The notes under the pieces are model-generated. The model was given only the letters and a program-made list of their open reading frames with translations. It did not search any database and was not told where the DNA came from. Both the position numbers and the translations under genes were made by a program. This document shows positions 1 to 16,674 of a DNA stretch of 32,000 nt, in pieces. Origin of the DNA: Phycisphaera mikurensis NBRC 102666 (GTDB lineage: Bacteria > Planctomycetota > Phycisphaerae > Phycisphaerales > Phycisphaeraceae); the NCBI RefSeq assembly GCF_000284115.1, contig NC_017080.1:1200001-1232000 (forward strand), read 5' to 3'. The first letter of the stretch is position 1, and the number at the start of each line of letters is the position of its first letter.

Positions 1-870
<870 letters not shown>

Positions 871-892
871 GGGGGGCTTCGACAGGCAGGCG

Positions 893-948
893 AAGAAGCG
901 GGGAAGCGGGGAAGCGAAGAAGCGGGGAAGCGAAGAAGCGAAGAAGCG
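893..948. repeat. Tandem 8-bp-period repeat, seven units RRGAAGCG (aagaagcg / gggaagcg)
   Basis: Read directly: 893 aagaagcg gggaagcg gggaagcg aagaagcg gggaagcg aagaagcg aagaagcg 948, just after the glmS stop. It is preceded by a small hairpin, cttcg-acaggcagg-cgaag (877-895). The same GAAGNGNN periodicity recurs at 12201-12490 and 16476-16674. Confidence 0.85.
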
Positions 949-1515
949 GCCTGTGCCGGGGCCTGGACACCGGCCTGTGCCGGGGCCTGGACACCGCGTA
1001 CCCGCGTACCCGCGTACTGGGGCCTGGACACCGCGTACCGGGGCCTGGACACCGCGTACCGGGCCTCGAGAACATGGCCTGCGGGGTGCCGGGGGTGCCG
1101 GGGCCTGGACACCGCGGCCTGTGCCGGGGCCTGGACACCGCGTATCCGGAGATGAAGCACGGCCCGATCGCGCTGATCGACGAGGGCATGCCGGTGGTGT
1201 TCGTCGCGACCGGCGGCAGCCAGTACAGCAAGGTGATCTCCAACATCGGCCTGTGCCGGGGCCTGGCCTGTGCCGAGGCCTGGACACCGCGTACCCGCGT
1301 ACCGGCGTACCGGGGCCTGCGGCGTACCGGGGCCTGGACACCGCGTACCGGGCCTCGAGAACGTGGCCTGTGCCGGGGCCTGGACACCGCGTACCCGCGT
1401 ACCCGCGTACCGTACCGGGGCCTGGACACCGCGTACCGGGCCTCGAGAACGTGGCCTGTGCCGGGCCTGTGCCGGGGCCTGGACACCGCGTGGTGGACAC
1501 CGCGTGGGGACACTG
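949..1515. repeat. Mosaic GC-rich tandem repeat array (REP-like modules), interrupted by a glmS fragment
   Basis: Built from a few modules: GGCCTGTGCCGG, GGCCTGGACACCGCGTACC, CGCGTACC and GGGCCTCGAGAAC(A/G)TGGCCTG. A higher-order unit of roughly 90 bp recurs (about 968-1080 and 1365-1458). ORFs crossing it on both strands (953.., 1074.., 1270.. +; 767.., 795.. -) translate to repetitive PGPGHRV / RGLDTAY strings and are not credible proteins here. Confidence 0.85.
1147..1248 (+). other. Duplicated internal fragment of glmS (copy of nt 542-643) embedded in the repeat array
   Basis: The 102-nt stretch cggagatgaagcacggcccgatcgcgct[g]atcgacgagggcatgccggtggtgttcgtcgcgaccggcggcagccagtacagcaaggtgatctccaacatcg matches glmS 542-643. 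There is one difference (c at 570 vs g at 1175, synonymous Leu). It is flanked on both sides by GGCCTGTGCCGGGGCCTGGACACCGCGTA repeat units. Confidence 0.9.
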
Positions 1516-1621
1516 CATCAGGCCGCAACACCGCAGGGGGCGTTGCTTCTTCGAGACGGTTTCTGTACGGTCCTCCTGCCGGGTCGCCCGACCCGCTTCT
1601 CGCTCCTTCCGGAGGCTCCCT

Positions 1622-2626
1622 GTGGCACGCCGCAACCGCTGCCTGATCGTCGACCCCGACCTCCCGCAGGCGTGGCACGTCAGCAACCGCTGTGCGAGGT
1701 CTCTGTTCCTGCTGGAGCCCGAGGCACAAGACCGCGGGGATCGCGAGCCGGAGGACCACCGCAAGGAGCTGCTGCTGGCGAGGCTGGAGAAGCTGGTGGC
1801 GGTCAGCTCCATCGAGGTGCTGGCCTTCAGCGTCATGGGCAACCACCTGCACCTGGTCCTGCGCAACGTGCCCGAGGTCGGCCACGCCTGGTCGCCGCGG
1901 GAGGTGCTGGACCGCTGGCTCGCCCTGCACCCGCTGCGGAACCGCCAGGGCCCGCGGGAGCCCGAGGCCGGCGAGCTGGAGGCGCTGGTGGCCGACGAAG
2001 CGTGGGTCGCCGCCACGAGGCGGAAGCTGATGGACCTCTCGCAGTTCATGAAAGAGCTCAAGCAGCACGTGGCCGTGGCCGTCAACAAGCTCGAGAGCGG
2101 CAGCGGCGCCTTCTGGAGCGGTCGGTACAAGAGCAAGCCGATCGACGATCCCGAGGGTCACCAGCTGGTGCGTTCGATGGTGTACGTGGACCTGAACCCC
2201 CTGGCGGCGGGGCTGTGCGATCGACCCGAGGACGGCCGCCACACCTCGCTGGAGGGGCGGCTGGGGCGGGACCAGCCAGCAACCCCGCAGCAAGCCGAGC
2301 CCGCCGAGCGGGCACCCACCGCCGCCTTCCGCCGCTCCCGCAGCGCCTCGTGGCTGGTGCCGCTGGCGGGCGAGGATCCCAGGTCGCGGATGCACGAAGC
2401 CGCCCGTGCCGCATCGGCGGCCGTGCCCGCTGCAGGCCGCACCGTCCTGGCCGGTCTGACCCTGCGTCGGTACCTGCGTTTGGTGGACGCCGTTTCGCGT
2501 CTCTTGCGTGCAGGCAAGGCCTCGCTGGACCGCCGGCTCGCGCCGATTCTCGAGCGTGTGGGCCTGGGCCCGGAGGACCTCCGCGTCGGCTTCGCGCGGA
2601 TGGCCACCGGCTCGCCGCACTTCTGA
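1622..2626 (+). CDS. HUH/Y1 single-strand DNA transposase-like protein (IS200/IS605 TnpA / REP-associated RayT-like), paralog 1
   Basis: HUH motif in FSVMGNHLHLVL; FWSGRYKSKPI; putative catalytic-Tyr region MVYVDLNPLAAGL. The GTG start at 1622 was chosen by aligning VARRNRCLIVDPDLPQAWHVSNRCARSLFLL with MARSLRHQILPDATCVVHVVSKISRSLHLL of the paralog at 5537. The upstream part of ORF 953..2626 is repeat array. TGA at 2624-2626. Confidence 0.75.
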   Translation: MARRNRCLIVDPDLPQAWHVSNRCARSLFLLEPEAQDRGDREPEDHRKELLLARLEKLVAVSSIEVLAFSVMGNHLHLVLRNVPEVGHAWSPREVLDRWLALHPLRNRQGPREPEAGELEALVADEAWVAATRRKLMDLSQFMKELKQHVAVAVNKLESGSGAFWSGRYKSKPIDDPEGHQLVRSMVYVDLNPLAAGLCDRPEDGRHTSLEGRLGRDQPATPQQAEPAERAPTAAFRRSRSASWLVPLAGEDPRSRMHEAARAASAAVPAAGRTVLAGLTLRRYLRLVDAVSRLLRAGKASLDRRLAPILERVGLGPEDLRVGFARMATGSPHF

Positions 2627-2820
2627 CGCCAGCGGATCCAGGCTCCAGCGTCCCCGGCCGGTAGGCTGGCGGGTGTGTCATGCGCCACGCCAGCGGCATC
2701 ACCCAAACGCGAGAGCCGCGCGGGCTCGCGAACGGCTGGCGCTTGCCCGCGAGGACGCGGGAGGCCGCGCAGGATGCTCCGAGCGGTCCGATCCGCGTCG
2801 GATGTGGAGGGGGCACCCGG

Positions 2821-2840
2821 ACGGTGTCCAGGCCCCGGCA
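2821..2840 (-). repeat. Inverted copy of the array module TGCCGGGGCCTGGACACCG
   Basis: acggtgtccaggccccggca is the reverse complement of tgccggggcctggacaccgt, the dominant module of the 949-1515 array. Paralog 1 is therefore flanked by oppositely oriented copies. Confidence 0.7.
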
Positions 2841-2855
2841 GATCGCCTTCCAGGA

Positions 2856-4595
2856 ATGCACGACGGATACGACTTCGAGGCGAGCGGCAACTTGCGGCTC
2901 TGGAAGGCGGAGGGTGACTCCGCGGGTCGCTCGTTGGAGCACTACATCCAACCCGCTGAGGAGTACTCCCTTCAAGACCTTGGACTTGAAGAGGCCGGTT
3001 CCACGGTGAAGTTGTACTTGGAGGCGCTCGGGAACACCTCGTCTTGGTGGTTCGGTCCCAACAACGACAGCACGTGGCAGTGGAACAACCCGACCTCGCC
3101 GCAGGCGATCAGCGTCCATGCCGAGCATGAGGATCTTCGGACTCAGATCGGTGACAGCGTCCTGGTGAAACCCATGCTGGTGGATCTGCGGATCGACAGC
3201 GACAACGACGGGACGCTGTCTCTGCGGGATGAAGCACTCGAACAAGCAGAGCCGGGCATCGCGCCCGGTGCATGGTGGGTCATCAACAACGACGACTCAG
3301 ATTCCGACCTCTGGGTCCCGGACTACGCCGACGGTTACGGACTCGCCGCCGCGAAGGGCACCGCCGTCAACGCCGAGGCCGACCAAGTTTCCAACGAGGA
3401 CGAGTTTTACAAGATCAGCACCGACTTCACGAGATACGCGGGCAACGATGCAGAGCGCCTGAAGGTCCGCTTTAACTACGATGCAAACGATCCGATCGCT
3501 GGTGTGCAATTCGATGGCACGCAAGGCTACCGGATCGTTGACGGCGGGCTAATCCGCATCTGGACCACGGACGCTGCGGATCCAGGCCGCGACGGACGGA
3601 AGCTTCAGGACGGCGGAAGTGTCATCGAGAGCGGGTACGCGTACAGCGTCAGCGACCTCCCGGCCGCGGGCCTTTATCTCGAGAGTGTCGCCAGTTCCGG
3701 CTCCCTCGCGGACCTCGACGTGCTGGTGGAGTACCTGCTGGACGGCGTCGTCTTTGCGTCGGACCGCGTCGCAGGCACGAGCGTGGCTTCCAAAGCAGGA
3801 TTCACCACCCAGGCGTTGCAGCGGGCACGCATCAACCCCGACACCTGGGCGCCGCTGGCAGGCTTCCCGTTCAACCAAAACACGGTGCAAGCGGTCTACG
3901 ACTACTACCGCGACACCTACCTTGCCAACCAAGACGACTTCGTCTGGCTGGGCATGGCTCGGATGGCGGGAGGTGCGGTGTGGGACGGGCTCATTACAGG
4001 CGAGCAGGCAATCACCCTCCTTCGTGCGGCGCTTGCCAACCCGCTACAGACTTGGCAGGATCGGCTCGGAAACCTCTATGCACTAGAGATAGCAGAACGG
4101 CAGCAAGTCATGTTCGTCGAGATGCAGAAGGCGATCTTCGAAGATCTCGCATGGCAGCATGAACTTTACGCTGATGCTGGATACGCTGCGTTCGAGATCT
4201 TGAGGACTCATACGCCGAAGGATGTACCTTCCGACGTAGATACCGTATGGAAGCAGATCGATGCGGGTGATGTAGTCAGGGGTAATTTCGCACTGGTCCC
4301 TCGCGAGCAGAACTACATCCTGCAACCTTACTGGGATCAGTTCACGGCCGCCTTTGGCATGCAAGGCGTCGTCATCGGGCAGGGAACAAGGTCTCCGCTG
4401 CCGAACGGGCTCCCATTTGCGTCAACACCGGGGCTCGGCCTCTTCCCGAATGTCGCGTGGTGGCCAGACCGTGAACGGTGGATCGAGCTCGACATGTGGC
4501 CGAAATGGTTGGACTACATCAAACGGGAGCGGGCTGATCTCGTCAAAGCTGGCCTCGGAACGCAGTTAGGGCCGGCGTTCGTCAGCCCAATCTGA
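2856..4595 (+). CDS. Hypothetical large cargo protein (579 aa), Asp-rich DxDxDG-type motif, no signal peptide; function unknown
   Basis: Long ORF with protein-like composition and lower GC than the flanks (line 4081-4140 is 31/60 G+C). ATG at 2856 coincides with the onset of the GC drop. Contains LRIDSDNDGTLSL (DxDxDG-like Ca-binding loop) and VINNDDSDSDLWVPDYADGYG. The C-terminal region FVWLGMARMAGGAVWDGL...IFEDLAWQHELY is not recognised by me. The start (2802 or 2856) is uncertain. Confidence 0.7.
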   Translation: MHDGYDFEASGNLRLWKAEGDSAGRSLEHYIQPAEEYSLQDLGLEEAGSTVKLYLEALGNTSSWWFGPNNDSTWQWNNPTSPQAISVHAEHEDLRTQIGDSVLVKPMLVDLRIDSDNDGTLSLRDEALEQAEPGIAPGAWWVINNDDSDSDLWVPDYADGYGLAAAKGTAVNAEADQVSNEDEFYKISTDFTRYAGNDAERLKVRFNYDANDPIAGVQFDGTQGYRIVDGGLIRIWTTDAADPGRDGRKLQDGGSVIESGYAYSVSDLPAAGLYLESVASSGSLADLDVLVEYLLDGVVFASDRVAGTSVASKAGFTTQALQRARINPDTWAPLAGFPFNQNTVQAVYDYYRDTYLANQDDFVWLGMARMAGGAVWDGLITGEQAITLLRAALANPLQTWQDRLGNLYALEIAERQQVMFVEMQKAIFEDLAWQHELYADAGYAAFEILRTHTPKDVPSDVDTVWKQIDAGDVVRGNFALVPREQNYILQPYWDQFTAAFGMQGVVIGQGTRSPLPNGLPFASTPGLGLFPNVAWWPDRERWIELDMWPKWLDYIKRERADLVKAGLGTQLGPAFVSPI

Positions 4596-4635
4596 GCCTA
4601 GAGACTAAGCGATCCTCGATGAGGACAAAATTCCG

Positions 4636-5232
4636 ATGATCTGCGACTTGACCTCTTCGGTGTTCTCCCTCACGTTTGCCTTCGTCATCGCGACAGCAAC
4701 CGGCTGCGGGAAGATGGAGAAACCTCCCGTTGAGATTGTTGTTCGGACGCTGGAGGATCGGTGGCTGGATGCAAGCCCACCGTTCCGGACCCTTGAGTGG
4801 ACTGGGTTTACAGTCAATTCAAGCCACGAGGCGGGTATAGTAACGATTGGTCCTCCGGATATGACAGCACCCGTGGCCCGATATGCCTATCGAACAGTTT
4901 ACAAGAAGGAGCGATGGTCGCCCGAGAGCCTCGGCTACTACCTCTTCGCGGGTCGGGATGTCATGGAAGCACCGGAGGTCTCTGAACTCGCACTCAGCCT
5001 CATCCGAGCGACGGGCCGGACGGTCAGCGAGCGAGAGGCCACGGCATTAGAAGAACTCGTCACCGGGATCGCATACCGAGAGATCAGCGACGGCTCGGCG
5101 AGCCTCTCGATCTACAAAGACCTGGACACACCCAACGGGATCTCGCTCGACGTCTCCAGGCGCCCGCGGGGCAAGCCCGAGCTGACCCTCGATCTCTACC
5201 TGAGGATCTCGGACCCCGACCCGCTGTGGTGA
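4636..5232 (+). CDS. Hypothetical small exported (lipoprotein-like) cargo protein
   Basis: ATG at 4636 preceded by GAGGA (4620-4624). N-terminus MICDLTSSVFSLTFAFVIATATGCGK has a hydrophobic h-region ending in Cys (non-canonical lipobox ATGC). Low GC like the upstream gene (line 4621-4680 is 31/60 G+C). Confidence 0.7.
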   Translation: MICDLTSSVFSLTFAFVIATATGCGKMEKPPVEIVVRTLEDRWLDASPPFRTLEWTGFTVNSSHEAGIVTIGPPDMTAPVARYAYRTVYKKERWSPESLGYYLFAGRDVMEAPEVSELALSLIRATGRTVSEREATALEELVTGIAYREISDGSASLSIYKDLDTPNGISLDVSRRPRGKPELTLDLYLRISDPDPLW

Positions 5233-5288
5233 CCGCCTCCAGGAGCGGTTTCCCGTGACACTGGATATCGGTCGCTGATGGAGACGCC

Positions 5289-5450
5289 ATGCACTGTGTT
5301 CCTCTTCGTGTCGCCGTTGTCGTCCTGACGGGCGCTCTTGGGCTCCCCGTCGCCGCCGAGCGTGTGGCGGAAGCCGTTGACAGCGGAGCGTCCCCGGTCG
5401 AAGGAGCAGAGCAATCCACCGGAGGAGGCTTCGACTTTAGGAACATGTAG
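5289..5450 (+). CDS. Possible 53-aa secreted peptide (below the ORF-track length cutoff)
   Basis: Hand translation: MHCVPLRVAVVVLTGALGLPVAAERVAEAVDSGASPVEGAEQSTGGGFDFRNM, then TAG at 5448-5450. The N-terminus is signal-peptide-like and codon usage resembles the low-GC cargo. No homology recognised. Confidence 0.2.
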   Translation: MHCVPLRVAVVVLTGALGLPVAAERVAEAVDSGASPVEGAEQSTGGGFDFRNM

Positions 5451-5536
5451 GAACATGGGGTCAAGCCCCTTGCAGAGGTGCTATGGTGCCGTCGCCGAGT
5501 TGCCTCCCGCTCTCCCGCTCCTCCCACACCGCTCCC

Positions 5537-6622
5537 ATGGCCCGCTCTCTCCGCCACCAGATCCTGCCTGACGCCACCTGCGTCGTCCATGTTGTGTCGA
5601 AGATCTCGCGGTCGCTTCACTTGCTGGTGCCCGATGAGGATCGTGCCGGCGCCGGTGCCGTTGGCGACGCGGCCGAGCACCCCGACCTCCGCAAGGAGCT
5701 GCTGCTGCAGCGGCTGGAGACGCTGGCGGAGCAGACCTCGATCTCGGTATGCGGGTTCGCGGTGATGGACAACCACGTCCACCTGATCCTGCGGCGGGAC
5801 AAGGAGGAGGCCGCGGCGTGGTCAGCGGCGGAGGTGGTGGGGCGGTGGCTCGCGTTGCACCCCAAGCGGAATCGGGCGCGGCAGCCGGTGGAGACGCCGG
5901 AGGAGGACCTGGCGGCGATGGTGGCGGACGCGGGCCTGGTGGAGGCGCTGCGTGGAAAGCTGTCGAGCGTCTCGCAGTTCATGAAGGACCTCAAGCAGCG
6001 GACCGCGGAGGCGGTGAACAAGTTGGAAGGCCGCGGCGGGCGGCTCTGGGACGGGACGTTCAAGAGCAAGCTGATCGAGGACCAGGAGCAGCTGGTGGCG
6101 ACGATGGTGTACGTGGACTTGAACCCCTTCGCGGCGGGGGTGTGCGAGACGCCCGAAGAGGGCCGCCACACCTCGCTGGCGGGGCGGCTGGGGCGGGACG
6201 AGCCGGCGGGGGAGGTGAGCAAGCCCGCAGGATCCGCGGACCGCGACCGGGAGGAGGCCTCGGAGGCCGGCGGTCCGCGGGTTGGTCTGCGGTTGCCACG
6301 GCGGAGGTCCAGCGGGGCCTGGCTGCGGCCGCTGGACGAGTCGGCCCAGCGGGCGCGGAAGCGTGGGCAACGGCGGCACCCGCGAGGGCGGGCGGGGCTG
6401 AAAGCGGAGGCCGCGGGAACGGTGAGCCCGGGGCTGTCGCTGCAGATCTACCTGCGGATTCTCGACGCGGTCAGCCGCAAGCTGCGGGCGGGCAAGAAAC
6501 GCCTTGCGGCGGGCACGGCCAGCGTCTTCGAGCGGCTGAACCTGGACGCCGACGCGGTGGTCGGGCGGGTGCTGGCGATGGCGCAGCGGGACGGGCTGGC
6601 GGTGGCGGGCCGGGGCAGCTGA
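5537..6622 (+). CDS. HUH/Y1 single-strand DNA transposase-like protein (IS200/IS605 TnpA / RayT-like), paralog 2
   Basis: HUH motif in FAVMDNHVHLIL; LWDGTFKSKLI; MVYVDLNPFAAGV. Collinear with paralog 1 across the N-terminal ~220 aa, and C-terminal LQIYLRILDAVSRKLRAGK parallels LRRYLRLVDAVSRLLRAGK. ATG 5537 is preferred over ATG 5483 by paralog alignment. TGA at 6620-6622. Confidence 0.8.
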   Translation: MARSLRHQILPDATCVVHVVSKISRSLHLLVPDEDRAGAGAVGDAAEHPDLRKELLLQRLETLAEQTSISVCGFAVMDNHVHLILRRDKEEAAAWSAAEVVGRWLALHPKRNRARQPVETPEEDLAAMVADAGLVEALRGKLSSVSQFMKDLKQRTAEAVNKLEGRGGRLWDGTFKSKLIEDQEQLVATMVYVDLNPFAAGVCETPEEGRHTSLAGRLGRDEPAGEVSKPAGSADRDREEASEAGGPRVGLRLPRRRSSGAWLRPLDESAQRARKRGQRRHPRGRAGLKAEAAGTVSPGLSLQIYLRILDAVSRKLRAGKKRLAAGTASVFERLNLDADAVVGRVLAMAQRDGLAVAGRGS

Positions 6623-6627
6623 ACCGA

Positions 6628-6750
6628 GCTCGCCGGGGCCTGGCTACCTCGCAGGAGGCGTTGCTTCTTCCGAACGGATCCGCCGGGCTCGCCGGGGCCT
6701 GGACACTGTCCGGGTCGGGCCTGCCAGGGCCTGCCCGGGCCTGCCGGGCA
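6628..6750. repeat. Repeat cluster related to the 949-1515 array
   Basis: gctcgccggggcctgg occurs twice (6628-6643 and 6688-6703). gccggggcctggacac (6691-6706) matches the array module. It is followed by ggcctgccagggcctgcccgggcctgccggg reiterations (6718-6748). Confidence 0.7.
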
Positions 6751-7063
6751 TCGCCGGGCGAGGGCTGTTGCGGTGACTGCGCCAGCCGCTTTGCAACGCA
6801 AGGCGGGCTCTTGTCCGGATCAGCGTCGATCCCCGAGGCGGCGTCGCCGGGCTCCGGCCCGCTCAGCGTTGCGAAGCGGCTGACGCTGTCAGCCCCGCCG
6901 GGATCTCGGTGGGCCTGCCTGGGAAGCTGCTCGGATCGTGGGGTGGCACGCCGGAGATGCACGGCCTCGTGGTGATGGCGACGGATCGATCGGTGAACGC
7001 CGGGTTCTCGTTTCCGAGCCCGCGGCTCATCCGCTCGTCGGCCGGTTCCTTACCCTCTCCCGC

Positions 7064-7591
7064 ATGCCGTCCCGCCTTCCAGCAGCCCTGCTGCTCGTTC
7101 TCCCGCTGCTGCTCCCGGCCTGCGTTGCGCCCACGTACGTGAACATCCCCTCGGAGGGCGGCATCGCGGCGAGCGATCCGAACAGCTTCAACGTGCGGGA
7201 CGTGGTGGCGGACTCGATCGCGGCGGCGGTGGAGCGGGAGCCGCTGGAGGGCGTCTACGAGATCCTGCTGCCCGAGGGCACGACGCAGCAGACGTACCAG
7301 GCGGTGGTGCGGCAGATCGGCGGCGGGGCGATCGCGCCCGACACGCTCCGCGACCGGCCGGTGCCCTCGGTCCGCGTGGTCGCGGTGCGGATCCGGAACC
7401 AGGACGCGGAGGTGGACGTGGTCCGCCCCAGCCCCACCGGCCGCTCCGTCGTCCGGGTCTTTCTGAAGTGGTACTACGGCGGCGACTGGGCCGTGCAGCG
7501 GGTGAAGCCGCTGCGGATCCCCGCGGAGGAGCTTCTGCTGCGGACCGCGACGCCGCCGCCGCCGCCGGACGCCGAGGATTCCGGAGAATGA
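7064..7591 (+). CDS. Hypothetical exported protein (signal peptide ending LLLPAC, lipoprotein-like)
   Basis: Internal ATG at 7064 gives MPSRLPAALLLVLPLLLPACVAPTY. GC3-rich codons. The stop overlaps the next start (ATGA at 7588-7591). Confidence 0.65.
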   Translation: MPSRLPAALLLVLPLLLPACVAPTYVNIPSEGGIAASDPNSFNVRDVVADSIAAAVEREPLEGVYEILLPEGTTQQTYQAVVRQIGGGAIAPDTLRDRPVPSVRVVAVRIRNQDAEVDVVRPSPTGRSVVRVFLKWYYGGDWAVQRVKPLRIPAEELLLRTATPPPPPDAEDSGE

Positions 7592-9144: not shown

Positions 9145-10191
9145 CTAGCGCTTCGGCGACTGCCGAAGATCCGCTGCGTCCTCCGCCTTGCTGGACGCCG
9201 CCCGTGAGGCTTCCGCCGCTTCGGCGTTGCGCTTCCACATCGGCAGCTTGATGCGGATGAGCGCGGTGCCGGCGGTCGCGGCGAGGCGATCGGCTCGGGT
9301 CCAGCCGGCGACCTCGGCCGGATCCAGCCCGGCGGCGTGCGGCCGGGGCGCGAAGTCCAGCGGGACGGGCAGCGGGTGGCGGGTGCCGATGGCGTTGAAG
9401 GGGCACACGTCCTGGCAGACGTCGCAGCCGGCGAGCCAGCCGTGGGTGTCCGGGGCCGCGCCCGGCGGATCGACCGACCGCCGCTCGATGGTCAGGTAGC
9501 TGATGCACCTCCGCGGGTCGATCGCGTGGCCGCCCGCATCGATCGCCCCGGTCGGGCAGGCGTCGATGCACCGCGTGCAGTTCGCGCAGCGGTCGGTCGG
9601 CTCGGCGAGCGGGCCGGGGAAGCCGCGGGCGGCGGAGGTCGGCAGCTCCAGGGTTGTGAGCAGCGCGCCCAGCAGCACGAAGGAGCCGTGGCGGGGGTGG
9701 ATCAGCAGCGAGTTCTTGCCCCGCCAGCCCAGGCCGGCGGCCTCGGCGTAGCGACGCTCGTCCAGCGGCGCGGTGTCGACGCAGGCGCGGAAGGCGGCGT
9801 CGGGGAAGGCCGCGGCGAGGCCGTCGCCGAGGCGGTGGAGCTTCTTCTTGAGCACGCGGTGGTAGTCGCGGCCCCAGGCGTAGCGGGCGATCCTGCCGCG
9901 GACCGAGCCGTTCCGGGCCGCAACCTCGGGTCGGTCCGCGGATCCGCCGGCGGGTTGGGTGTTCCCGTAGCTGTCGGCGACGATCACGACCGACCTCGCC
10001 CCCGGCAGCACCGCCTCGACGCCCAGCCGGGCCTCGGCGGAGTCGGCGAGCCAGCCCATCTCGCCGGCCCGGCCCGCCGCGAACCAGGCGCGGGAGCGGG
10101 CGGCCTCCTCCGCGGGGGCGGGCGCGGCGTCGGCCACGCCCCAGAGGCCGAAGCCGATCTTCGCCGCGAGCGCGTCGAGGGTTTCGATCAC
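9145..10191 (-). CDS. queG: Epoxyqueuosine reductase (tRNA queuosine biosynthesis)
   Basis: RIARYAWGRDYHRVLKKKL plus two ferredoxin-type clusters, CANCTRCIDACPTGAI and CDVCQDVCPFN. GTG start at 10191 in a GTGA overlap with the stop (10188-10190) of the upstream membrane-protein gene. The longer track ORF (to 10458) overlaps that gene. Confidence 0.85.
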   Translation of the reverse strand: MIETLDALAAKIGFGLWGVADAAPAPAEEAARSRAWFAAGRAGEMGWLADSAEARLGVEAVLPGARSVVIVADSYGNTQPAGGSADRPEVAARNGSVRGRIARYAWGRDYHRVLKKKLHRLGDGLAAAFPDAAFRACVDTAPLDERRYAEAAGLGWRGKNSLLIHPRHGSFVLLGALLTTLELPTSAARGFPGPLAEPTDRCANCTRCIDACPTGAIDAGGHAIDPRRCISYLTIERRSVDPPGAAPDTHGWLAGCDVCQDVCPFNAIGTRHPLPVPLDFAPRPHAAGLDPAEVAGWTRADRLAATAGTALIRIKLPMWKRNAEAAEASRAASSKAEDAADLRQSPKR

Positions 10192-10922
10192 GCGGCGTCC
10201 TCCGGCTCCGGGGCCGCCAGCAACCCGAGCATCAGGCACCAGAAGGCAAGCACGATGTTCTGCATCGGCAGCTGCAGCGGGAGCGGCAGCAGGTAGATGA
10301 CGCACACCGCGGGGATCCACACCGCCCAGCACGAGCACAGCAGCGGGAAGACTTCGCGGCGGTACCAGCCCCGGCCGGCGTGCCGCCGCCGGAAGCGGCT
10401 CCACGAGAAGCCCGCGTCCTTGAAGCCGTAGACGGCCACCGTCTCGGGCATCGCCCACAGCGGGCAGTACACGAACATGTCCAGGAAGACCTTGCCGGCG
10501 ACGATCGCCGGGCCGCGGCCGTCGCCGAGCAGGCCGTCGAGCCCGCGGTAGAGCAGGTCGACCTGCAGCCCGACCACCGCCCAGAACAGCAGCAGGTACA
10601 GGAAGGCCCCGGGCGACTCGCTCGGCGCCGACGGCCGCAGCCGCTGCACGGCCGCCGGCAGCACCGCCCCGGCGAGCGTGGTCGTGAGCGCCGCGAAGCC
10701 CAGCGCCACCGGCAGCGGCTGCTCGGCCCGCCAGCCGGCGAGCCGCTGCAACGCCGCCCGCATCGGCGGCCAGAGCTCGTACCCCAGCAGCACCGCGATG
10801 GCGAAGGCCGTCAACGCGAGCCCGGGGCCGAGGTTGGCTCGGGCGGCGGCGACCAAGCCGCTCCGGCGCTCGGGCGCACCCAACCGCTCGCCCCCCGCGG
10901 CCTCGGCGGCCGCCTCGCTCAC
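10188..10922 (-). CDS. Integral membrane protein (possibly Mpv17/PMP22-like; family assignment tentative)
   Basis: C-terminal part of track ORF 10188..12536. Several hydrophobic helices (LALTAFAIAVLLGY, FLYLLLFWAVVGL, LLCSCWAVWIPAVCVIYLL, IVLAFWCLMLGLLA). GTG at 10922 forms a GTGA overlap with the stop of the upstream gene (10919-10921). Confidence 0.6.
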   Translation of the reverse strand: MSEAAAEAAGGERLGAPERRSGLVAAARANLGPGLALTAFAIAVLLGYELWPPMRAALQRLAGWRAEQPLPVALGFAALTTTLAGAVLPAAVQRLRPSAPSESPGAFLYLLLFWAVVGLQVDLLYRGLDGLLGDGRGPAIVAGKVFLDMFVYCPLWAMPETVAVYGFKDAGFSWSRFRRRHAGRGWYRREVFPLLCSCWAVWIPAVCVIYLLPLPLQLPMQNIVLAFWCLMLGLLAAPEPEDAA

Positions 10923-12187: not shown

Positions 12188-12200
12188 GGCTGCACCAGGC

Positions 12201-12490
12201 AAGCGAAGAAGCGAAGAAGATAGGAAGCGAAGAAGTCAGTCCGTCGCGCCATCGCTCCGCTCGGCGGCCTCCCCTCGGGTCGGCGAAGCCGACGCGTTGC
12301 CTGACTTCCCCACTTCGTCGCTTCCCCGCCTCCCCGCTTCCCCGCTTCCCCGCTTCCCCGCTTCCCCGCTTCCCCGCTTCCCCGCTTCCCCGCTTCTTCT
12401 CTTCTCCGCTTCCCCGCTTCTTCTCTTCTTCTCTTCTTCTCTTCTTCTCTTCTTCTCTTCTTCGCTTCTTCACTTCCCCGCTTCTCCACT
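12201..12490. repeat. 8-bp-period repeat element: short purine-rich arm, 61-nt core (12240-12300) containing a 15-nt hairpin, long CCCCGCTT / CTTCTCTT tandem array
   Basis: Left arm aagcgaagaagcgaagaagataggaagcgaagaagtcag (12201-12239). gaagtcag (12232-12239) is inverted at ctgacttc (12301-12308). Hairpin GTCGGC-GAA-GCCGAC at 12279-12293. This is followed by about 20 consecutive 8-mers (ccccgctt x8, cttctctt x5, variants) up to about 12490. Confidence 0.85.
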
Positions 12491-14344: not shown

Positions 14345-15448
14345 TCAGGGCCGCGGGTGGAACCTCGCCAGCACGTCGGCGAGCCGCGAGCGGTCGACGT
14401 GGGTGTACAGCTCCGTCGTCCCGAGGTCCGCGTGGCCGAGCATCTCCTGCACGACGCGCAGGTCGGCTCCGCCGGCGAGCAGCTGCGTGGCGTAGCTGTG
14501 CCGCAGCGTGTGCGGGTGCACGTTGTGCAGCCCGGCCGCCGCGGCGTGCCGCTTGACGACCTGCCACACGACGATCCGCGTGACCGGCTGGCCCGTCCGG
14601 GAGAGGAACAGCCGGCCGGTCGGCTCCTTGAGGAGCTTGGGCCGCAGCTGCTCGGCGTAGCGCTGGATCGCCTGGAGGCAGGGCGTGCCGACCGGCAGGA
14701 TCCGCTCCTTGTTGCCCTTGCCGAGCACGCGGACGACGCCCAGCGTCGCGTCGATCGCGTCCGCGGGCAGCGCCGCGGCCTCGCTCGCCCGCAGGCCGCC
14801 CGCGTAGAGCAGCTCCAGCAGCGCGACGTCGCGGAGGTAGAGCGTCGCGGCCGGGTCCGGCGCCGCGAGCAGCTTCTCCGCGTCGGCGTGGCCGAGCACG
14901 TGCGGGAGCGTCCGCCAGGTTCTGGGTTGGCTCAGCCGCTCGGCGGCGTCGGCGGGCGTGTGCCCCGCCGCGGCGGCGAAGCGGCAGAAGACGCGGATCG
15001 TCGCGGTGTGCCGCGCGATCGAGGCCGTCTGCAAGCCGCCGGCTGCGAGCGACTGGAGGTGCCCGACCAGCCGCTCGTGGTCGAGCTCGTGCCAGCCGCC
15101 CCGGTGGCCCTCCCGCTCCATCCACGTGCGCAGGTCGCGGAGGTCGCCCGCGTAGGCCGCGAGCGTGGCCGGCGAGAAGCCGCACTCCACCCGGCAGTGC
15201 GTGAGGAAGCCGCGGACCGCGGGCTCGAAGGGCGAAACCGCCGCGCGGTCCGCGGGTGGGGCCGGAGGCGTTGCCGGCTCAGCCGCCGGCGAGGAGCAGC
15301 CGCGGGCGGCCCGCGCCGACGGCGGGGAGCCGGCGGCCGACGAGGGTGATGGGGACGAGGCGTCGGCGAGGCGCAGCGGGCCGCGGCTGAGCGTGAAGGC
15401 CGGCCCCGGCGGGCTCCGTCGCGGCGGCGGGGTTGCGGGTGGGCTCAC
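14345..15448 (-). CDS. xerD: Tyrosine site-specific recombinase, XerC/XerD family
   Basis: SAM-like N domain FLTHCRVECGFSPATLAAYAGDLRDL. Catalytic signature LYAGGLRASE, HTLRHSYATQLL, LGHADLGTTELYTHV (R-H-R-Y). Only a GTG at 15448 is available as an in-frame start, giving an Ala/Pro-rich extension of about 70 aa. The start is uncertain. Confidence 0.85.
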   Translation of the reverse strand: MSPPATPPPRRSPPGPAFTLSRGPLRLADASSPSPSSAAGSPPSARAARGCSSPAAEPATPPAPPADRAAVSPFEPAVRGFLTHCRVECGFSPATLAAYAGDLRDLRTWMEREGHRGGWHELDHERLVGHLQSLAAGGLQTASIARHTATIRVFCRFAAAAGHTPADAAERLSQPRTWRTLPHVLGHADAEKLLAAPDPAATLYLRDVALLELLYAGGLRASEAAALPADAIDATLGVVRVLGKGNKERILPVGTPCLQAIQRYAEQLRPKLLKEPTGRLFLSRTGQPVTRIVVWQVVKRHAAAAGLHNVHPHTLRHSYATQLLAGGADLRVVQEMLGHADLGTTELYTHVDRSRLADVLARFHPRP

Positions 15449-16475: not shown

Positions 16476-16674
16476 GAAGAGACGAAGAGACGGAGAGACG
16501 AAGAGACGAAGAGACGGAGACAGGCAGGGAGGAAAAGGGGGCCGCGGTCGGATCTGTCCGTCTTCGTCTCTTCGTCTCTTGCTCGCACCCCATCGGCCCG
16601 CGGATGTCTGCGGCGCGATCCCGACGCCGCGGCCCCCGAATCGGCTCGCCTCGCGCGTCTTCGTCTCTTCGTCC
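16476..16674. repeat. 8-bp-period repeat element forming a long imperfect palindrome (GAAGAGAC units) in a divergent intergenic region
   Basis: Left arm gaagagac gaagagac ggagagac gaagagac gaagagac ggagac (16476-16521). Spacer with caggcaggg (16521-16529). Right arm gtccgtcttc gtctcttc gtctcttg (16556-16581), complementary to the left units (15 of 16 nt for 16500-16515 vs 16566-16581). A further partial copy gtcttcgtctcttcgtcc lies at 16657-16674. Confidence 0.85.

What the first reader, a model, noticed from the sequence alone, without database searches (positions are those of the whole stretch)
871..7063. Accessory island immediately downstream of glmS: two diverged direct HUH-transposase paralogs bracket a low-GC two-gene cargo
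Between the glmS stop (870) and the next core-like gene (7064) lies about 6.2 kb that looks foreign. Cargo lines at 4081-4140 and 4621-4680 are each 31/60 G+C, against 47/60 for a typical flank line (9601-9660). The cargo is bracketed by two same-orientation paralogs that are clearly diverged, with roughly half of the aligned residues identical by eye, so they are not a recent duplication.
The 3' flank of glmS is the classical attTn7 hotspot for Tn7-like elements and other islands. No tnsABCD or integrase genes are present here, so a different mechanism (HUH-mediated or recombination between paralogs) would be responsible.
Basis: partly seen in the sequence, partly recalled or inferred. Interest (0 to 1): 0.65.

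Follow-up and report, generated by a model that had tools for sequence, protein, structure and literature searches.

The report
Transposon-built gene island after glmS
About 6 kb of extra DNA after the glmS gene of Phycisphaera mikurensis is a real insertion, made of two recently active single-strand-DNA (HUH/Y1) transposase elements of different types and a foreign, toxin-like two-gene cargo; the parts are of known kinds, and their arrangement and side products are moderately interesting.

Summary
The window is Phycisphaera mikurensis. Two relatives keep the order glmS, lipoprotein, 325-aa gene, yjbQ, queG with only 147-212 nt after glmS, so about 950-7063 is an insertion. The cargo (2856-5232) has 60% GC and GC3 of 0.72-0.75, against 74% and 0.93-0.98 in the flanks.

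The two paralogs are 49% identical. Both are intact Y1 HUH proteins (HUH motif, YVDLNP; best fold match E. coli TnpAREP, 4ER8). They fit the long TnpA_Y1 subclass 2.3, also described as "TIRYT".

They are not an old duplicate pair. Each belongs to its own multicopy family in this genome, at least 3-4 copies at 95-99% identity.

Paralog 1 is flanked by inverted copies of a 19-nt motif. The motif also flanks its 72%-identical homolog in another species. Paralog 2 has a 5' hairpin end preceded by a short stutter repeat. One of its copies elsewhere carried off 666 nt of this locus, including 225 nt of the neighbouring core gene.

The cargo's C-terminal domain also tips an RHS toxin, and a small lipoprotein gene follows it.

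There is no Tn7 machinery. Nothing shows that the HUH genes moved the cargo. The best reading is stepwise accretion at a hairpin-rich spacer.

The parts
1..870 (+). glmS, C-terminal part (context; left flank of the island)
   Evidence: SIS domain at E 1.4e-47. The full 660-aa gene is in L002. It is 90-93% identical to glmS of the relatives L127 and L128.
885..949 (+). 8-nt purine-rich tandem repeat (GAAGCGGG/GAAGCGAA)n; probably native spacer, not island
   Evidence: Tandem Repeats Finder period 8/16/24. The same GGGGAAGCG array lies 3' of rpoN at 12313-12484. A similar array plus its complement fills the glmS spacer of L128.
950..1520 (+). Array of 11 same-strand copies of the type-1 end motif (TGCCGGGGCCTGGACACCG) with higher-order repeats
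   Evidence: There are 11 + strand matches of GGGGCCTGGACACCG in 958-1488, against 0.28 expected in the whole window. Families D1-D3. The array does not fold better than shuffles, z +0.5 to +0.8.
1147..1248 (+). 102-nt, 99% identical copy of glmS 542-643 embedded in the motif array
   Evidence: Direct repeat D5. The junctions show 2-3 nt of microhomology, read from the sequence.
1532..1560 (+). Conserved box in the type-1 5' leader (CGCAGGGGGCGTTGC...)
   Evidence: 21 nt are 95% identical to 6650-6670. The same CGCAGGGGGTTGC directly follows the motif in L005.
1622..2626 (+). Paralog 1: type-1 Y1 HUH transposase-like gene (334 aa)
   Evidence: HUH at H75/H77 and YVDLNP at Y188. AlphaFold2 model with pLDDT 80, best PDB match 4ER8. 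Y1_Tnp 21.1 bits and REP_Tyr_transpos 41.9 bits, both below cut-off. Cluster of 6 near-identical proteins, about 4 genomic copies.
2815..2840 (-). Inverted copy of the type-1 motif (right end of the type-1 unit); also one arm of the 25-nt inverted repeat with 6691-6715
   Evidence: The only - strand match in the island. Inverted repeats I4 and I16-I20. L005 has three - strand copies at the equivalent position.
2856..4595 (+). Cargo 1 (579 aa): unique N-terminal half plus a helical C-terminal domain related to DUF2515
   Evidence: GC 0.607, GC3 0.745. No Pfam or NCBIfam hit. The C-terminal domain is found in 562 representative clusters, often at the extreme C-terminus of long proteins, including an RHS protein. 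The identical protein is on record from 2 contigs, the longer being the 3.80-Mb contig.
4636..5232 (+). Cargo 2 (198 aa): small lipoprotein-like protein, an orphan
   Evidence: GC 0.601, GC3 0.724. Signal-peptide-like N-terminus with ...ATGC. Its cluster has one member. No family hits.
5438..5500 (+). Type-2 left end: (TAGGAACATG)x2 stutter, hairpin GGGGTCAAGCCCC and conserved leader
   Evidence: Tandem repeat at 5438-5457. Homology to both L129 copies starts at 5450. The L129 copies have a perfect 8-bp stem, GCAAGGGG-TCAAG-CCCCTTGC, preceded by (GGAAGCAAGGGG)n arrays.
5534..6622 (+). Paralog 2: type-2 Y1 HUH transposase-like gene (362 aa; NCBI calls 5537-6622)
   Evidence: HUH (NHVH) and YVDLNP. 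Y1_Tnp 22.6 bits and REP_Tyr_transpos 46.9 bits. 95-99% nt identity to two copies in L129.
6627..6715 (+). Solo remnant of a type-1 left end: partial motif 6632-6643, leader box 6650-6670, motif plus small hairpin 6690-6715
   Evidence: (D17, I4). The 22 nt GGGCCTGGACACTGTCCGGGTC are missing from the L129 copy.
6716..6759 (+). Short tandem repeat (CGGGCCTGC)n
   Evidence: Tandem Repeats Finder period 10/19.
7064..7591 (+). First core gene after the island (175-aa lipoprotein); its first 225 nt were copied to a second locus together with paralog 2
   Evidence: Orthologs lie directly after glmS in L127 and L128. Window 5450-7288 matches L129 5167-6998; the 7064-7288 stretch is 98.2% identical.

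Best explanation
The roughly 6.1 kb between glmS and the 175-aa lipoprotein gene is a mosaic insertion. It most likely built up stepwise in a hairpin-rich intergenic spacer and is not one Tn7-like or composite transposon.

**Three modules**
1. A type-1 unit (about 950-2840). It holds a Y1 HUH transposase-like gene of the long "subclass 2.3 / TIRYT" kind, bounded by inverted copies of a 19-nt motif. The left copy has expanded into an 11-copy array.
2. A horizontally acquired, lower-GC gene pair (2856-5232). It encodes a protein whose C-terminal domain also occurs at the tip of RHS-type toxins, followed by a small lipoprotein. I read the pair as a candidate effector-immunity pair.
3. A type-2 unit (about 5438-6625) of the same protein family, with a hairpin left end preceded by a stutter repeat. 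It is followed by a solo remnant of another type-1 left end.

**Shown**
- The segment is an insertion relative to two relatives.
- The cargo deviates in composition.
- Both proteins keep the catalytic motifs, and paralog 1 models with the Y1 HUH fold.
- Each type is multicopy at 95-99% identity.
- The inverted motif is conserved across species.
- One type-2 copy carried 666 nt of this locus to another site.

**Inferred**
- These proteins nick and rejoin single-stranded DNA at their end motifs, as IS608 and TnpAREP do.
- New copies land next to existing ends or hairpins. That would explain tandem copies, solo end remnants and stutter arrays.
- The cargo arrived separately. Alternatively it was carried along by imprecise end usage.
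For: - **Insertion.** L127 (glmS 90% identical) has 147 nt between glmS and the lipoprotein gene. L128 (93%) has 212 nt. Downstream gene order is the same in both.
- **Composition.** Cargo GC is 0.604 against 0.739 +/- 0.032 in the flank, and cargo GC3 is 0.72-0.75 against 0.93-0.98.
- **Protein family.**
  - H75, H77 and Y188-D-L-N are invariant in 41 homologs.
  - The model has pLDDT 80.3 and pTM 0.82. Its best PDB match is 4ER8 (TnpAREP), followed by the ISDra2, IS608 and IS200 transposases.
  - The YVDLNP motif, the roughly 111-residue HUH-Y spacing, the length of about 330 aa and the multicopy state match subclass 2.3 of PMC6006769.
  - Full-length 27-34% matches fall in Pseudoalteromonas, Shewanella, Catenovulum, Aeromonas, Vibrio and Photobacterium.
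- **Recent activity.** The type-1 cluster holds the window copy, BAM02345, the adjacent pair BAM02677 and BAM02678, and MBB6442794, which appears to be the draft assembly's counterpart of BAM02677. All are 95-99% identical at the protein level. Type-2 has three copies at 95-99% nt identity.
- **Ends.**
  - The motif occurs 11 times on + upstream and once on - downstream of paralog 1.
  - In another species (L005, protein 72% identical) the same 16-mer occurs once on + upstream and, with 1-2 mismatches, three times on - downstream.
  - Across 60 metagenomic family loci a GGACA(C/G)NC core is 11-fold enriched upstream on the + strand. It is 4-fold enriched downstream on the - strand.
- **Imprecise 3' end.** Window 5450-7288 matches L129 5167-6998, with 98-99% identity downstream of the gene (6623-7288). 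The match ends at an end-like hairpin.
- **Solo ends and stutters.**
- **Cargo domain.** It sits at the C-terminus of an RHS protein and of other giant surface proteins. The other two type-2 copies also follow RHS-like or DUF6973 proteins of lower GC.
Against: - No second copy of the cargo or of the whole block was found, so its mobility as a unit is unproven.
- The genome-wide number of motif copies could not be measured. The genome scan returned only chance hits in other taxa. None occurs in roughly 70 kb of other P. mikurensis sequence.
- The motif arrays do not fold better than shuffled sequence, so a hairpin substrate is not evident for type 1.
- The window's type-2 copy has no recognisable right-end hairpin.
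- Pfam and NCBIfam scores fall below the curated cut-offs.
- The order of events cannot be derived from one genome.
- The exact structure of the 950-1520 array rests on one draft assembly.
Confidence: 0.6

Rival explanations
1. One-piece arrival by integration of a circular or tandem intermediate. The whole block (motif, leader box, paralog 1, cargo, paralog 2) entered by a crossover or strand transfer inside a type-1 left end. This left direct repeats of that end at both sides, about 1470-1560 and 6632-6677, like attL and attR.
For: The partial motif plus leader box recurs in direct orientation downstream of paralog 2: 21 nt at 95% and 35 nt at 80% (D17, 24). Adjacent tandem type-1 copies exist elsewhere in the genome, BAM02677 and BAM02678.
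Against: The paralogs have near-native GC3 (0.90-0.91) while the cargo has 0.72-0.75, which argues for different histories. Type-2 copies exist without type-1 or this cargo. The repeat is short and imperfect. No circular junction or second copy is known.
Confidence: 0.15
2. A giant REPIN-like or composite unit. The 25-nt inverted repeat 2815-2839 / 6691-6715 delimits a mobilisable unit (cargo plus paralog 2) that the type-1 protein moves in trans, the way RAYTs are thought to move REPINs.
For: The inverted repeat is 25 nt long and 96% complementary. It brackets exactly the low-GC cargo and paralog 2 (I4). Each arm contains a small 7-bp hairpin.
Against: The one documented duplication from this locus (5450-7288) starts inside the unit and runs across the right arm, so it did not use these ends. 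The right arm's 22 nt are an indel flanked by GGGCCTG repeats, consistent with slippage. The two L129 cargo-plus-type-2 modules have no such inverted repeat.
Confidence: 0.1
3. An ancestral region lost from the relatives. The block was present in the common ancestor and was deleted in the lineages of L127 and L128.
For: Only two relatives were examined, and their branching order relative to P. mikurensis is unknown.
Against: The cargo's GC3 lies far below that of core genes. The paralogs are young multicopy elements. The two relatives have different, intact hairpin fillers in the spacer rather than deletion scars. The closest foreign homologs of paralog 1 sit at another site, upstream of rnd.
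Confidence: 0.05
4. A remnant of a Tn7-like or other site-specific glmS-targeting element whose transposition or integration genes have been lost.
For: The position is right: foreign DNA begins within about 80 nt of the glmS stop codon.
Against: The segment has no TnsA/B/C/D, integrase or recombinase domain. All four genes are accounted for. The end repeats belong to the Y1 elements. The only recombinase nearby, at 14345-15448, is Xer-like and lies 7 kb away beyond conserved core genes.
Confidence: 0.02

Closest known systems
TnpA_Y1 subclass 2.3 (Quentin, Siguier, Chandler and Fichant 2018, PMC6006769)
   Same: Shared features are the YVDLNP tyrosine motif, the HUH-Y distance of about 110 residues caused by a roughly 55-aa insertion after beta3, and a length of about 325 aa with a long C-terminal tail. 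Several copies per genome is also typical. Full-length matches fall in Alteromonadales and Vibrionales replicons.
   Different: This is Planctomycetota, not Chromatiales or Alteromonadales. The HUH motif reads NHLH/NHVH rather than NHYH. Copies within each type are 95-99% identical, whereas the paper reports about 75% on average. The paper found no REP-like flanks for this subclass, while here a conserved inverted motif flanks type 1 and a hairpin precedes type 2.
TIRtrons / TIRYT (Di Nocera et al. 2013, PMC3733652)
   Same: A RAYT-like tyrosine transposase gene is flanked by inverted repeats that are not classic GTAG REPs. Some of the published inverted repeats share a GGGGWSAS motif and occur as dimers or clusters. 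Here GGGGACAC lies at 1505-1512, the L129 remnant has GGGGTGAG and L004 has GGGGTGAC.
   Different: The left end is expanded to 11 copies and has a gene fragment inside it. Copy number and activity look IS-like. Membership in one of the paper's four TIRYT groups was not tested.
REP-RAYT systems (E. coli TnpAREP, PDB 4ER8; REPINs)
   Same: 4ER8 is the best structural match. The gene is flanked by its cognate repeat in inverted orientation.
   Different: These genes are multicopy rather than single-copy and domesticated. The motif is not a GTAG-tagged palindrome. Genome-wide dispersal of the motif was not seen in the sequence available. The NCBIfam RAYT model scores 42-47 bits against a cut-off of 80.
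IS200/IS605 insertion sequences (IS608, ISDra2)
   Same: They share the Y1 HUH fold and a subterminal hairpin at the left end (type 2). They also share near-identical multiple copies and, by inference, a preference for inserting next to a specific short sequence or hairpin.
   Different: The proteins here are more than twice as long, carry extra domains and have the Y...NP rather than the Y...Q signature. There is no tnpB. Type 1 has inverted ends rather than same-strand ends.
Tn7 and Tn7-like elements at attTn7
   Same: The location is the same: immediately 3' of glmS.
   Different: There is no TnsABCD/E and there are no Tn7 ends. The elements and the chemistry are different.
One-ended or read-through HUH elements (IS91, ISCR, Helitrons) and Rhs loci with 3' IS copies (cited from my own knowledge)
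   Same: A copy of the type-2 element took 666 nt of 3' flank with it, which resembles 3' transduction. RHS or toxin genes lie next to several family members.
   Different: Those elements use Y2 or Rep-type HUH proteins with rolling-circle replication. No such mechanism is shown here, and recombinational repair could give the same product.

Membership tests
Y1 HUH (IS200/IS605-superfamily) transposase fold | HUH metal-binding motif on beta3 and a single catalytic tyrosine on a C-terminal helix | tested here: met
   H75-L-H77 and Y188 in paralog 1, NHVH and YVDLNP in paralog 2. These positions are invariant in 41 homologs.
Y1 HUH (IS200/IS605-superfamily) transposase fold | Three-dimensional fold matching solved Y1 transposases | tested here: met
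   Paralog 1 model: pLDDT 80.3. Foldseek gives 4ER8 at E 1.6e-4 with target-normalised TM-score 0.67, then 2XM3, 2EC2, 2A6O and 2F4F, all at probability 1.00.
Y1 HUH (IS200/IS605-superfamily) transposase fold | Pfam PF01797 (Y1_Tnp) at its gathering score | tested here: not met
   21.1 and 22.6 bits against a cut-off of 23. The shortfall is small; the inserted domain splits the match.
RAYT / TnpAREP (REP-associated tyrosine transposase) | NCBIfam NF047646 at its cut-off | tested here: not met
   41.9 and 46.9 bits against 80.
RAYT / TnpAREP (REP-associated tyrosine transposase) | Gene flanked by its cognate repeat in inverted orientation | tested here: met
   Met for paralog 1: + copies at 958-1488 and a - copy at 2822-2836, with the same layout in L005. 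Not seen for paralog 2.
RAYT / TnpAREP (REP-associated tyrosine transposase) | The repeat is a palindromic REP (stable hairpin, usually GTAG-tagged) | tested here: not met
   There is no GTAG tag. Arrays and ends fold no better than shuffles, z -0.65 to +0.84. Only the copies at 2815-2840 and 6690-6715 contain a small 7-bp hairpin.
RAYT / TnpAREP (REP-associated tyrosine transposase) | The repeat is dispersed in many copies through the genome | tested here: inconclusive
   No copies occur outside this locus in the rest of the window or in L003, L004 and L129.
RAYT / TnpAREP (REP-associated tyrosine transposase) | Single-copy, vertically inherited gene | tested here: not met
   About 4 type-1 and 3 type-2 copies at 95-99% identity, plus two more diverged paralogs.
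TnpA_Y1 subclass 2.3 (PMC6006769) | YVDLNP motif, HUH-Y distance of about 110 residues, length of about 325 aa, insertion between beta3 and alphaC, specific C-terminal tail, several copies per genome | tested here: met
   YVDLNP is present. H77 to Y188 is 111 residues. Lengths are 334 and 362 aa. Helices 84-157 lie between beta3 and the next strand in the model. The genes are multicopy. The HUH motif reads NHLH/NHVH instead of NHYH. The subclass HMM itself was not available, so assignment is by signature.
TIRtron / TIRYT (PMC3733652) | RAYT-like gene flanked by terminal inverted repeats unrelated to GTAG REPs | tested here: met
   A 19-nt inverted motif is conserved between two species. Family-wide strand-specific enrichment of a GGACA(C/G)NC core is seen in 60 loci.
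IS200/IS605-type insertion sequence | Subterminal hairpins at both ends on the same strand; defined, repeatable ends among copies | tested here: inconclusive
   All three type-2 copies share a left-end hairpin, and homology to the window copy begins at window position 5450. The 3' limits differ: 6625 in one copy and 7288 in the other. End-like hairpins lie downstream only in L129. Flanks of the other type-1 copies could not be fetched.
Tn7-like element at attTn7 | tnsA/B/C plus a target selector (tnsD or tniQ) and Tn7-type ends | tested here: not met
   None of the four genes has such domains in Pfam or NCBIfam. The ends were not searched for specifically.
Composite transposon | Two copies of the same IS bracketing the cargo | tested here: not met
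   The flanking genes are 49% identical and have different end sequences.
Polymorphic toxin-immunity cassette | C-terminal domain shared with the tips of RHS or other delivery proteins, followed by a small cognate gene | tested here: inconclusive
   The domain (residues about 310-570) sits at the C-terminus of the RHS protein P0246 and of giant surface proteins. A 198-aa lipoprotein gene follows it. Cargo 1 itself has no RHS repeats or recognisable delivery domain. Toxicity and immunity are untested. Its fold matches nothing solved.

The most novel reading that the evidence does not exclude
The long subclass-2.3-like Y1 HUH genes are active autonomous elements. Their ends are recognisable (an inverted GGACAC-core motif or a hairpin) but loosely used, so they repeatedly land beside existing ends and carry neighbouring DNA with them. 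That would make them a vehicle for moving and shuffling RHS-type toxin and immunity cassettes in Planctomycetota. The glmS island, the second ruvX-gltA island (L129), the captured glmS fragment and the transduced lipoprotein-gene fragment would all be products of this one process.
Probability: 0.2. Interest if true: 0.7.

Novelty: new member of a known kind. Interest (0 to 1): 0.45.

Why it matters
The finding turns a vague "island at attTn7" into a dissected example of how Y1 HUH elements of a poorly studied, long subclass behave in a planctomycete. The published survey of that subclass found no end structures for it.

Here a conserved inverted end motif and a hairpin end are visible. Each type has several near-identical copies. 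There are concrete traces of imprecise end use: stutter arrays, solo ends, a captured gene fragment and 666 nt of transduced flank.

If these traces reflect the enzyme's own activity, this locus and its sister locus (L129) give testable substrates for a first biochemical study of the subclass. They also hint at how toxin-like cassettes spread in high-GC marine bacteria. If not, it is simply a well-documented small genomic island.

Tried and rejected
- **Genome-wide motif count.** REP-like dispersal therefore stays untested.
- **Other type-1 copies.** Look-ups of P0001 and P0179 found no record, so type-1 ends could not be defined by copy-to-copy comparison.
- **Cargo 2 in other contexts.** The exact look-up found nothing.
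- **RNA families.** Only a 27.8-bit chance hit to a human lncRNA model.
- **Defence-system models (PADLOC).** No hit for any of the four proteins.
- **Viral contigs.** No relatives of the paralogs.
- **Sequence search of solved structures with paralog 1.** Nothing. The fold search was needed.
- **Cargo 1 structure.** Mean pLDDT is 49.9; only the C-terminal helical domain is confident. There is no meaningful PDB match.
- **Cargo homology between loci.** The window cargo and the L129 cargo are not detectably related.
- **RHS association.** A motif count gave 2 of 36 family loci against 0 of 120 control loci. That is suggestive only and I do not claim it.
- **Hairpin substrate for type 1.** Folding of arrays and ends is not better than shuffles.
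- **Promoter and terminator scan.** Uninformative.
- **The 885-949 repeat.** I first took it for an element stutter. I reassigned it to native spacer after finding the same array 3' of rpoN and in L128.

Full report

Yes. The glmS C-terminal part ends at 870 (SIS domain). Four + strand genes follow: paralog 1 (1622-2626), cargo 1 (2856-4595), cargo 2 (4636-5232) and paralog 2 (5534-6622). The next gene starts at 7064.

The cargo has 60.4% GC. Ninety-eight 500-nt flank windows average 73.9 +/- 3.2%, with a minimum of 67%. Cargo GC3 is 0.745 and 0.724, against 0.93-0.985 for core genes and 0.90-0.91 for the paralogs. The paralogs are 49% identical, E 3e-77.

**2. Source and the empty-site test**

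The window is contig JACHEL010000008.1 of Phycisphaera mikurensis, assembly GCA_014207395.1. All four island proteins are on record from two contigs each. One of those is the 3.80-Mb contig, which I take to be the complete genome of the strain.

Two metagenome-assembled relatives keep the order glmS, lipoprotein, about 320-aa gene, yjbQ, queG. Their glmS proteins are 90% (L127) and 93% (L128) identical to the window's. They have only 147 nt and 212 nt between glmS and the lipoprotein gene. The segment is therefore an insertion.

In both relatives the short spacer is a long, highly significant hairpin. L127 has two inverted GTAG-tagged stem-loops, a REPIN-like doublet (z = -8.9). L128 has a purine-rich 8-9-nt array with its complement (z = -6.2).

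The window's 885-949 purine repeat is the same kind of array. It recurs 3' of rpoN at 12313-12484. It is probably native, so foreign DNA begins near 950.

**3. What the paralogs are**

- Pfam Y1_Tnp and the NCBIfam RAYT model both hit, but below their cut-offs.
- A 41-sequence alignment has invariant H75, H77 and Y188-x-D-L-N.
- The AlphaFold2 model of paralog 1 has pLDDT 80.3 and pTM 0.82. Its best match is E. coli TnpAREP bound to a REP hairpin (4ER8), followed by the ISDra2, IS608 and IS200 transposases.
- The YVDLNP signature, the 111-residue HUH-Y spacing, the length of about 330-360 aa and the multicopy state fit TnpA_Y1 subclass 2.3 of Quentin et al. 2018 (PMC6006769).
- Full-length 27-34% matches fall in Pseudoalteromonas, Shewanella, Catenovulum, Aeromonas, Vibrio and Photobacterium.
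- The family is common in metagenomes: 567 relatives among the first 600 candidates. It is absent from viral contigs.

**4. They are not just an old pair**

- The type-1 cluster holds the window copy, BAM02345, the adjacent pair BAM02677 and BAM02678, and MBB6442794, which looks like the draft assembly's version of BAM02677. All are 95-99% identical.
- Type 2 has three copies. The other two are both in locus L129, between ruvX and gltA. They are 95-99% identical in DNA to the window copy.
- Two more diverged paralogs sit elsewhere, in L003 and L004.
- The two window genes therefore represent two different, recently active element types.

**5. Ends**

*Type 1*
- The motif TGCCGGGGCCTGGACACCG occurs 11 times on the + strand at 958-1488, once on the - strand at 2822-2836, and once more on the + strand at 6694-6708. 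The expected count for the whole window is 0.28.
- In L005, a different species whose homolog is 72% identical, the same 16-mer lies once on + about 100 nt upstream. It lies three times on -, with 1-2 mismatches, 240-340 nt downstream. The leader box CGCAGGGGG(C)GTTGC follows the upstream copy in both species.
- Over 60 metagenomic loci a GGACA(C/G)NC core is 11-fold enriched upstream on + (median 124 nt from the gene). It is 4-fold enriched downstream on -.
- This is the "TIRtron" layout of Di Nocera et al. 2013 (PMC3733652). Quentin et al. reported no flanking structures for subclass 2.3.

*Type 2*
- The left end is a hairpin, GCAAGGGG-TCAAG-CCCCTTGC, perfect in L129 and degraded in the window.
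- It is preceded by stutter arrays of its left arm: (GGAAGCAAGGGG)n in L129 and (TAGGAACATG)2 in the window.

**6. Traces of imprecise activity**

- Window 5450-7288 matches L129 5167-6998. Downstream of the gene the match is 98-99% identical. It runs past the stop codon, through the spacer and 225 nt into the core lipoprotein gene. It stops at an end-like hairpin. The 111-aa ORF in L129 is that captured fragment. Relatives have the lipoprotein gene next to glmS, so the window is the donor.
- The other L129 copy ends 3 nt after the stop codon and is followed by two solo left-end fragments.
- Downstream of paralog 2 lies a solo type-1 left-end remnant (6627-6715). Its 22-nt motif part is an indel between the window and L129, flanked by GGGCCTG repeats.
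- Inside the type-1 array sits a 102-nt, 99% identical copy of glmS 542-643, with 2-3 nt of junction microhomology.

These features fit repeated nicking and rejoining or template switching at element ends. Replication slippage and recombinational repair are not excluded.

**7. Cargo**

- Cargo 1 has only remote relatives, and only in its C-terminal half.
- A full HMMER search finds that C-terminal domain (motif IFxDLAWQHE) in 562 representative clusters. It is often at the very C-terminus of proteins of 1200-2300 aa. One of these is an RHS-repeat protein; others carry fn3, Big_13, PA14 or TSP3 domains. It is weakly related to DUF2515.
- Cargo 2 is an orphan lipoprotein-like protein.
- The other two type-2 copies also follow lower-GC genes for RHS-like, DUF6973 or dockerin proteins.
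- L005 has RHS genes upstream.
- Of nine metagenomic loci whose largest upstream ORF was scanned, two have RHS proteins and two have lectin-dockerin or RTX proteins.
- A cruder count is only suggestive: 2 of 36 against 0 of 120.
- An effector-immunity reading is plausible but untested.

**8. Mechanism and rivals**

Best reading (0.6): stepwise accretion of two Y1 elements and a foreign gene pair in a hairpin-rich spacer. The Y1 proteins are assumed to act on single-stranded ends, as IS608 and TnpAREP do.

| Rival | Confidence |
|---|---|
| One-piece arrival by integration within a type-1 left end, leaving direct repeats near 1470-1560 and 6632-6677 | 0.15 |
| Giant REPIN-like unit bounded by the 25-nt inverted repeat 2815-2839 / 6691-6715 | 0.10 |
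| Ancestral region deleted in the relatives | 0.05 |
| Tn7-like remnant | 0.02 |

The REPIN-like unit is weakened because the only documented duplication ignores those ends.

**9. Comparison with what is known, and novelty**

The parts are known kinds: a subclass 2.3 / TIRYT-type Y1 gene, inverted end motifs, and a toxin-like cassette. The island is a new member of these kinds.

Four points go beyond the published descriptions:
- a conserved end motif for this subclass;
- high within-type identity between copies;
- flank transduction and fragment capture;
- the recurring toxin-like neighbours.

**10. Limits**

- The genome-wide motif count failed.
- Other type-1 loci could not be fetched.
- The array structure rests on one assembly.
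- No experiment is available.

Noticed in passing
window 12200-12484: A second, longer (GGGGAAGCG / GAAGAGAA)n purine 8-mer array lies 3' of rpoN, in the sense of the minus strand. A short complementary arm sits at 12200-12235. This explains the strong GC skew there. It looks like a dispersed repeat family placed after genes.
   Followed up: partly
L127 4196-4342: The glmS spacer of the relative is a REPIN-like doublet: two inverted GTAG-tagged stem-loops (GTAGCCCGGCAAC...GTTGCCGGG). It folds at -61.6 kcal/mol, z = -8.9.
   Followed up: partly
L128 11810-12021: The glmS spacer of the second relative is a purine-rich (GGGGAAGAG)n array with its complementary arm, z = -6.2. It is the same kind of array as window 885-949.
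   Followed up: partly
L129 2124-11300: This is a second island-like stretch in the same genome, between ruvX and gltA. It holds a 714-aa DUF6973 protein plus a 203-aa protein, a type-2 copy, the captured lipoprotein-gene fragment, a 724-aa RHS/dockerin-like protein, a second type-2 copy and two solo left-end fragments. The cargo genes have GC 0.51-0.65.
   Followed up: partly
L005 9827-10330: A truncated classical Y1 transposase ORF (HWH, YVERNP, ending ...AEDWRWV) abuts the type-1 motif at 10209. The gene caller fused it with the type-1 homolog into the 499-aa protein P0002. This is a nested insertion of one Y1 element next to or into another.
   Followed up: no
window 14345-15448 (- strand): A Xer-like tyrosine recombinase (Phage_integrase plus the SAM-like N-terminal domain) follows rpoN. 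In the relative L127, recR follows rpoN instead. It is most likely a housekeeping xerC/D gene, but the gene order differs.
   Followed up: no
window 6694-6715 vs L129 about 6426: The 22 nt GGGCCTGGACACTGTCCGGGTC (the motif plus its small hairpin) are present in the window and absent from the otherwise 99% identical L129 copy. The indel is flanked by GGGCCTG direct repeats.
   Followed up: yes
L003 9989-10001: The diverged paralog P0003 starts 12 nt after the stop of a 1187-aa AAA_11/AAA_12/UvrD-type helicase gene. The two may form an operon.
   Followed up: no
L004 9788-9911: The paralog P0006 (between argJ and fba) has two direct copies of the palindromic CATGGGGTGACACCCAC upstream. This matches the GGGGWSAS motif of published TIRYT repeats. 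No inverted copy lies downstream.
   Followed up: partly
L005 and L006, upstream of rnd: Two different metagenome-assembled genomes each carry a family member at the same site, upstream of rnd-mqnA. The two proteins are only 49% identical, and one of them is N-terminally truncated.
   Followed up: partly
window 16476-16670: CTTCGTCTCTTC-like 12-mers occur on both strands, twice each, within 200 nt. This may be another inverted repeat element.
   Followed up: no
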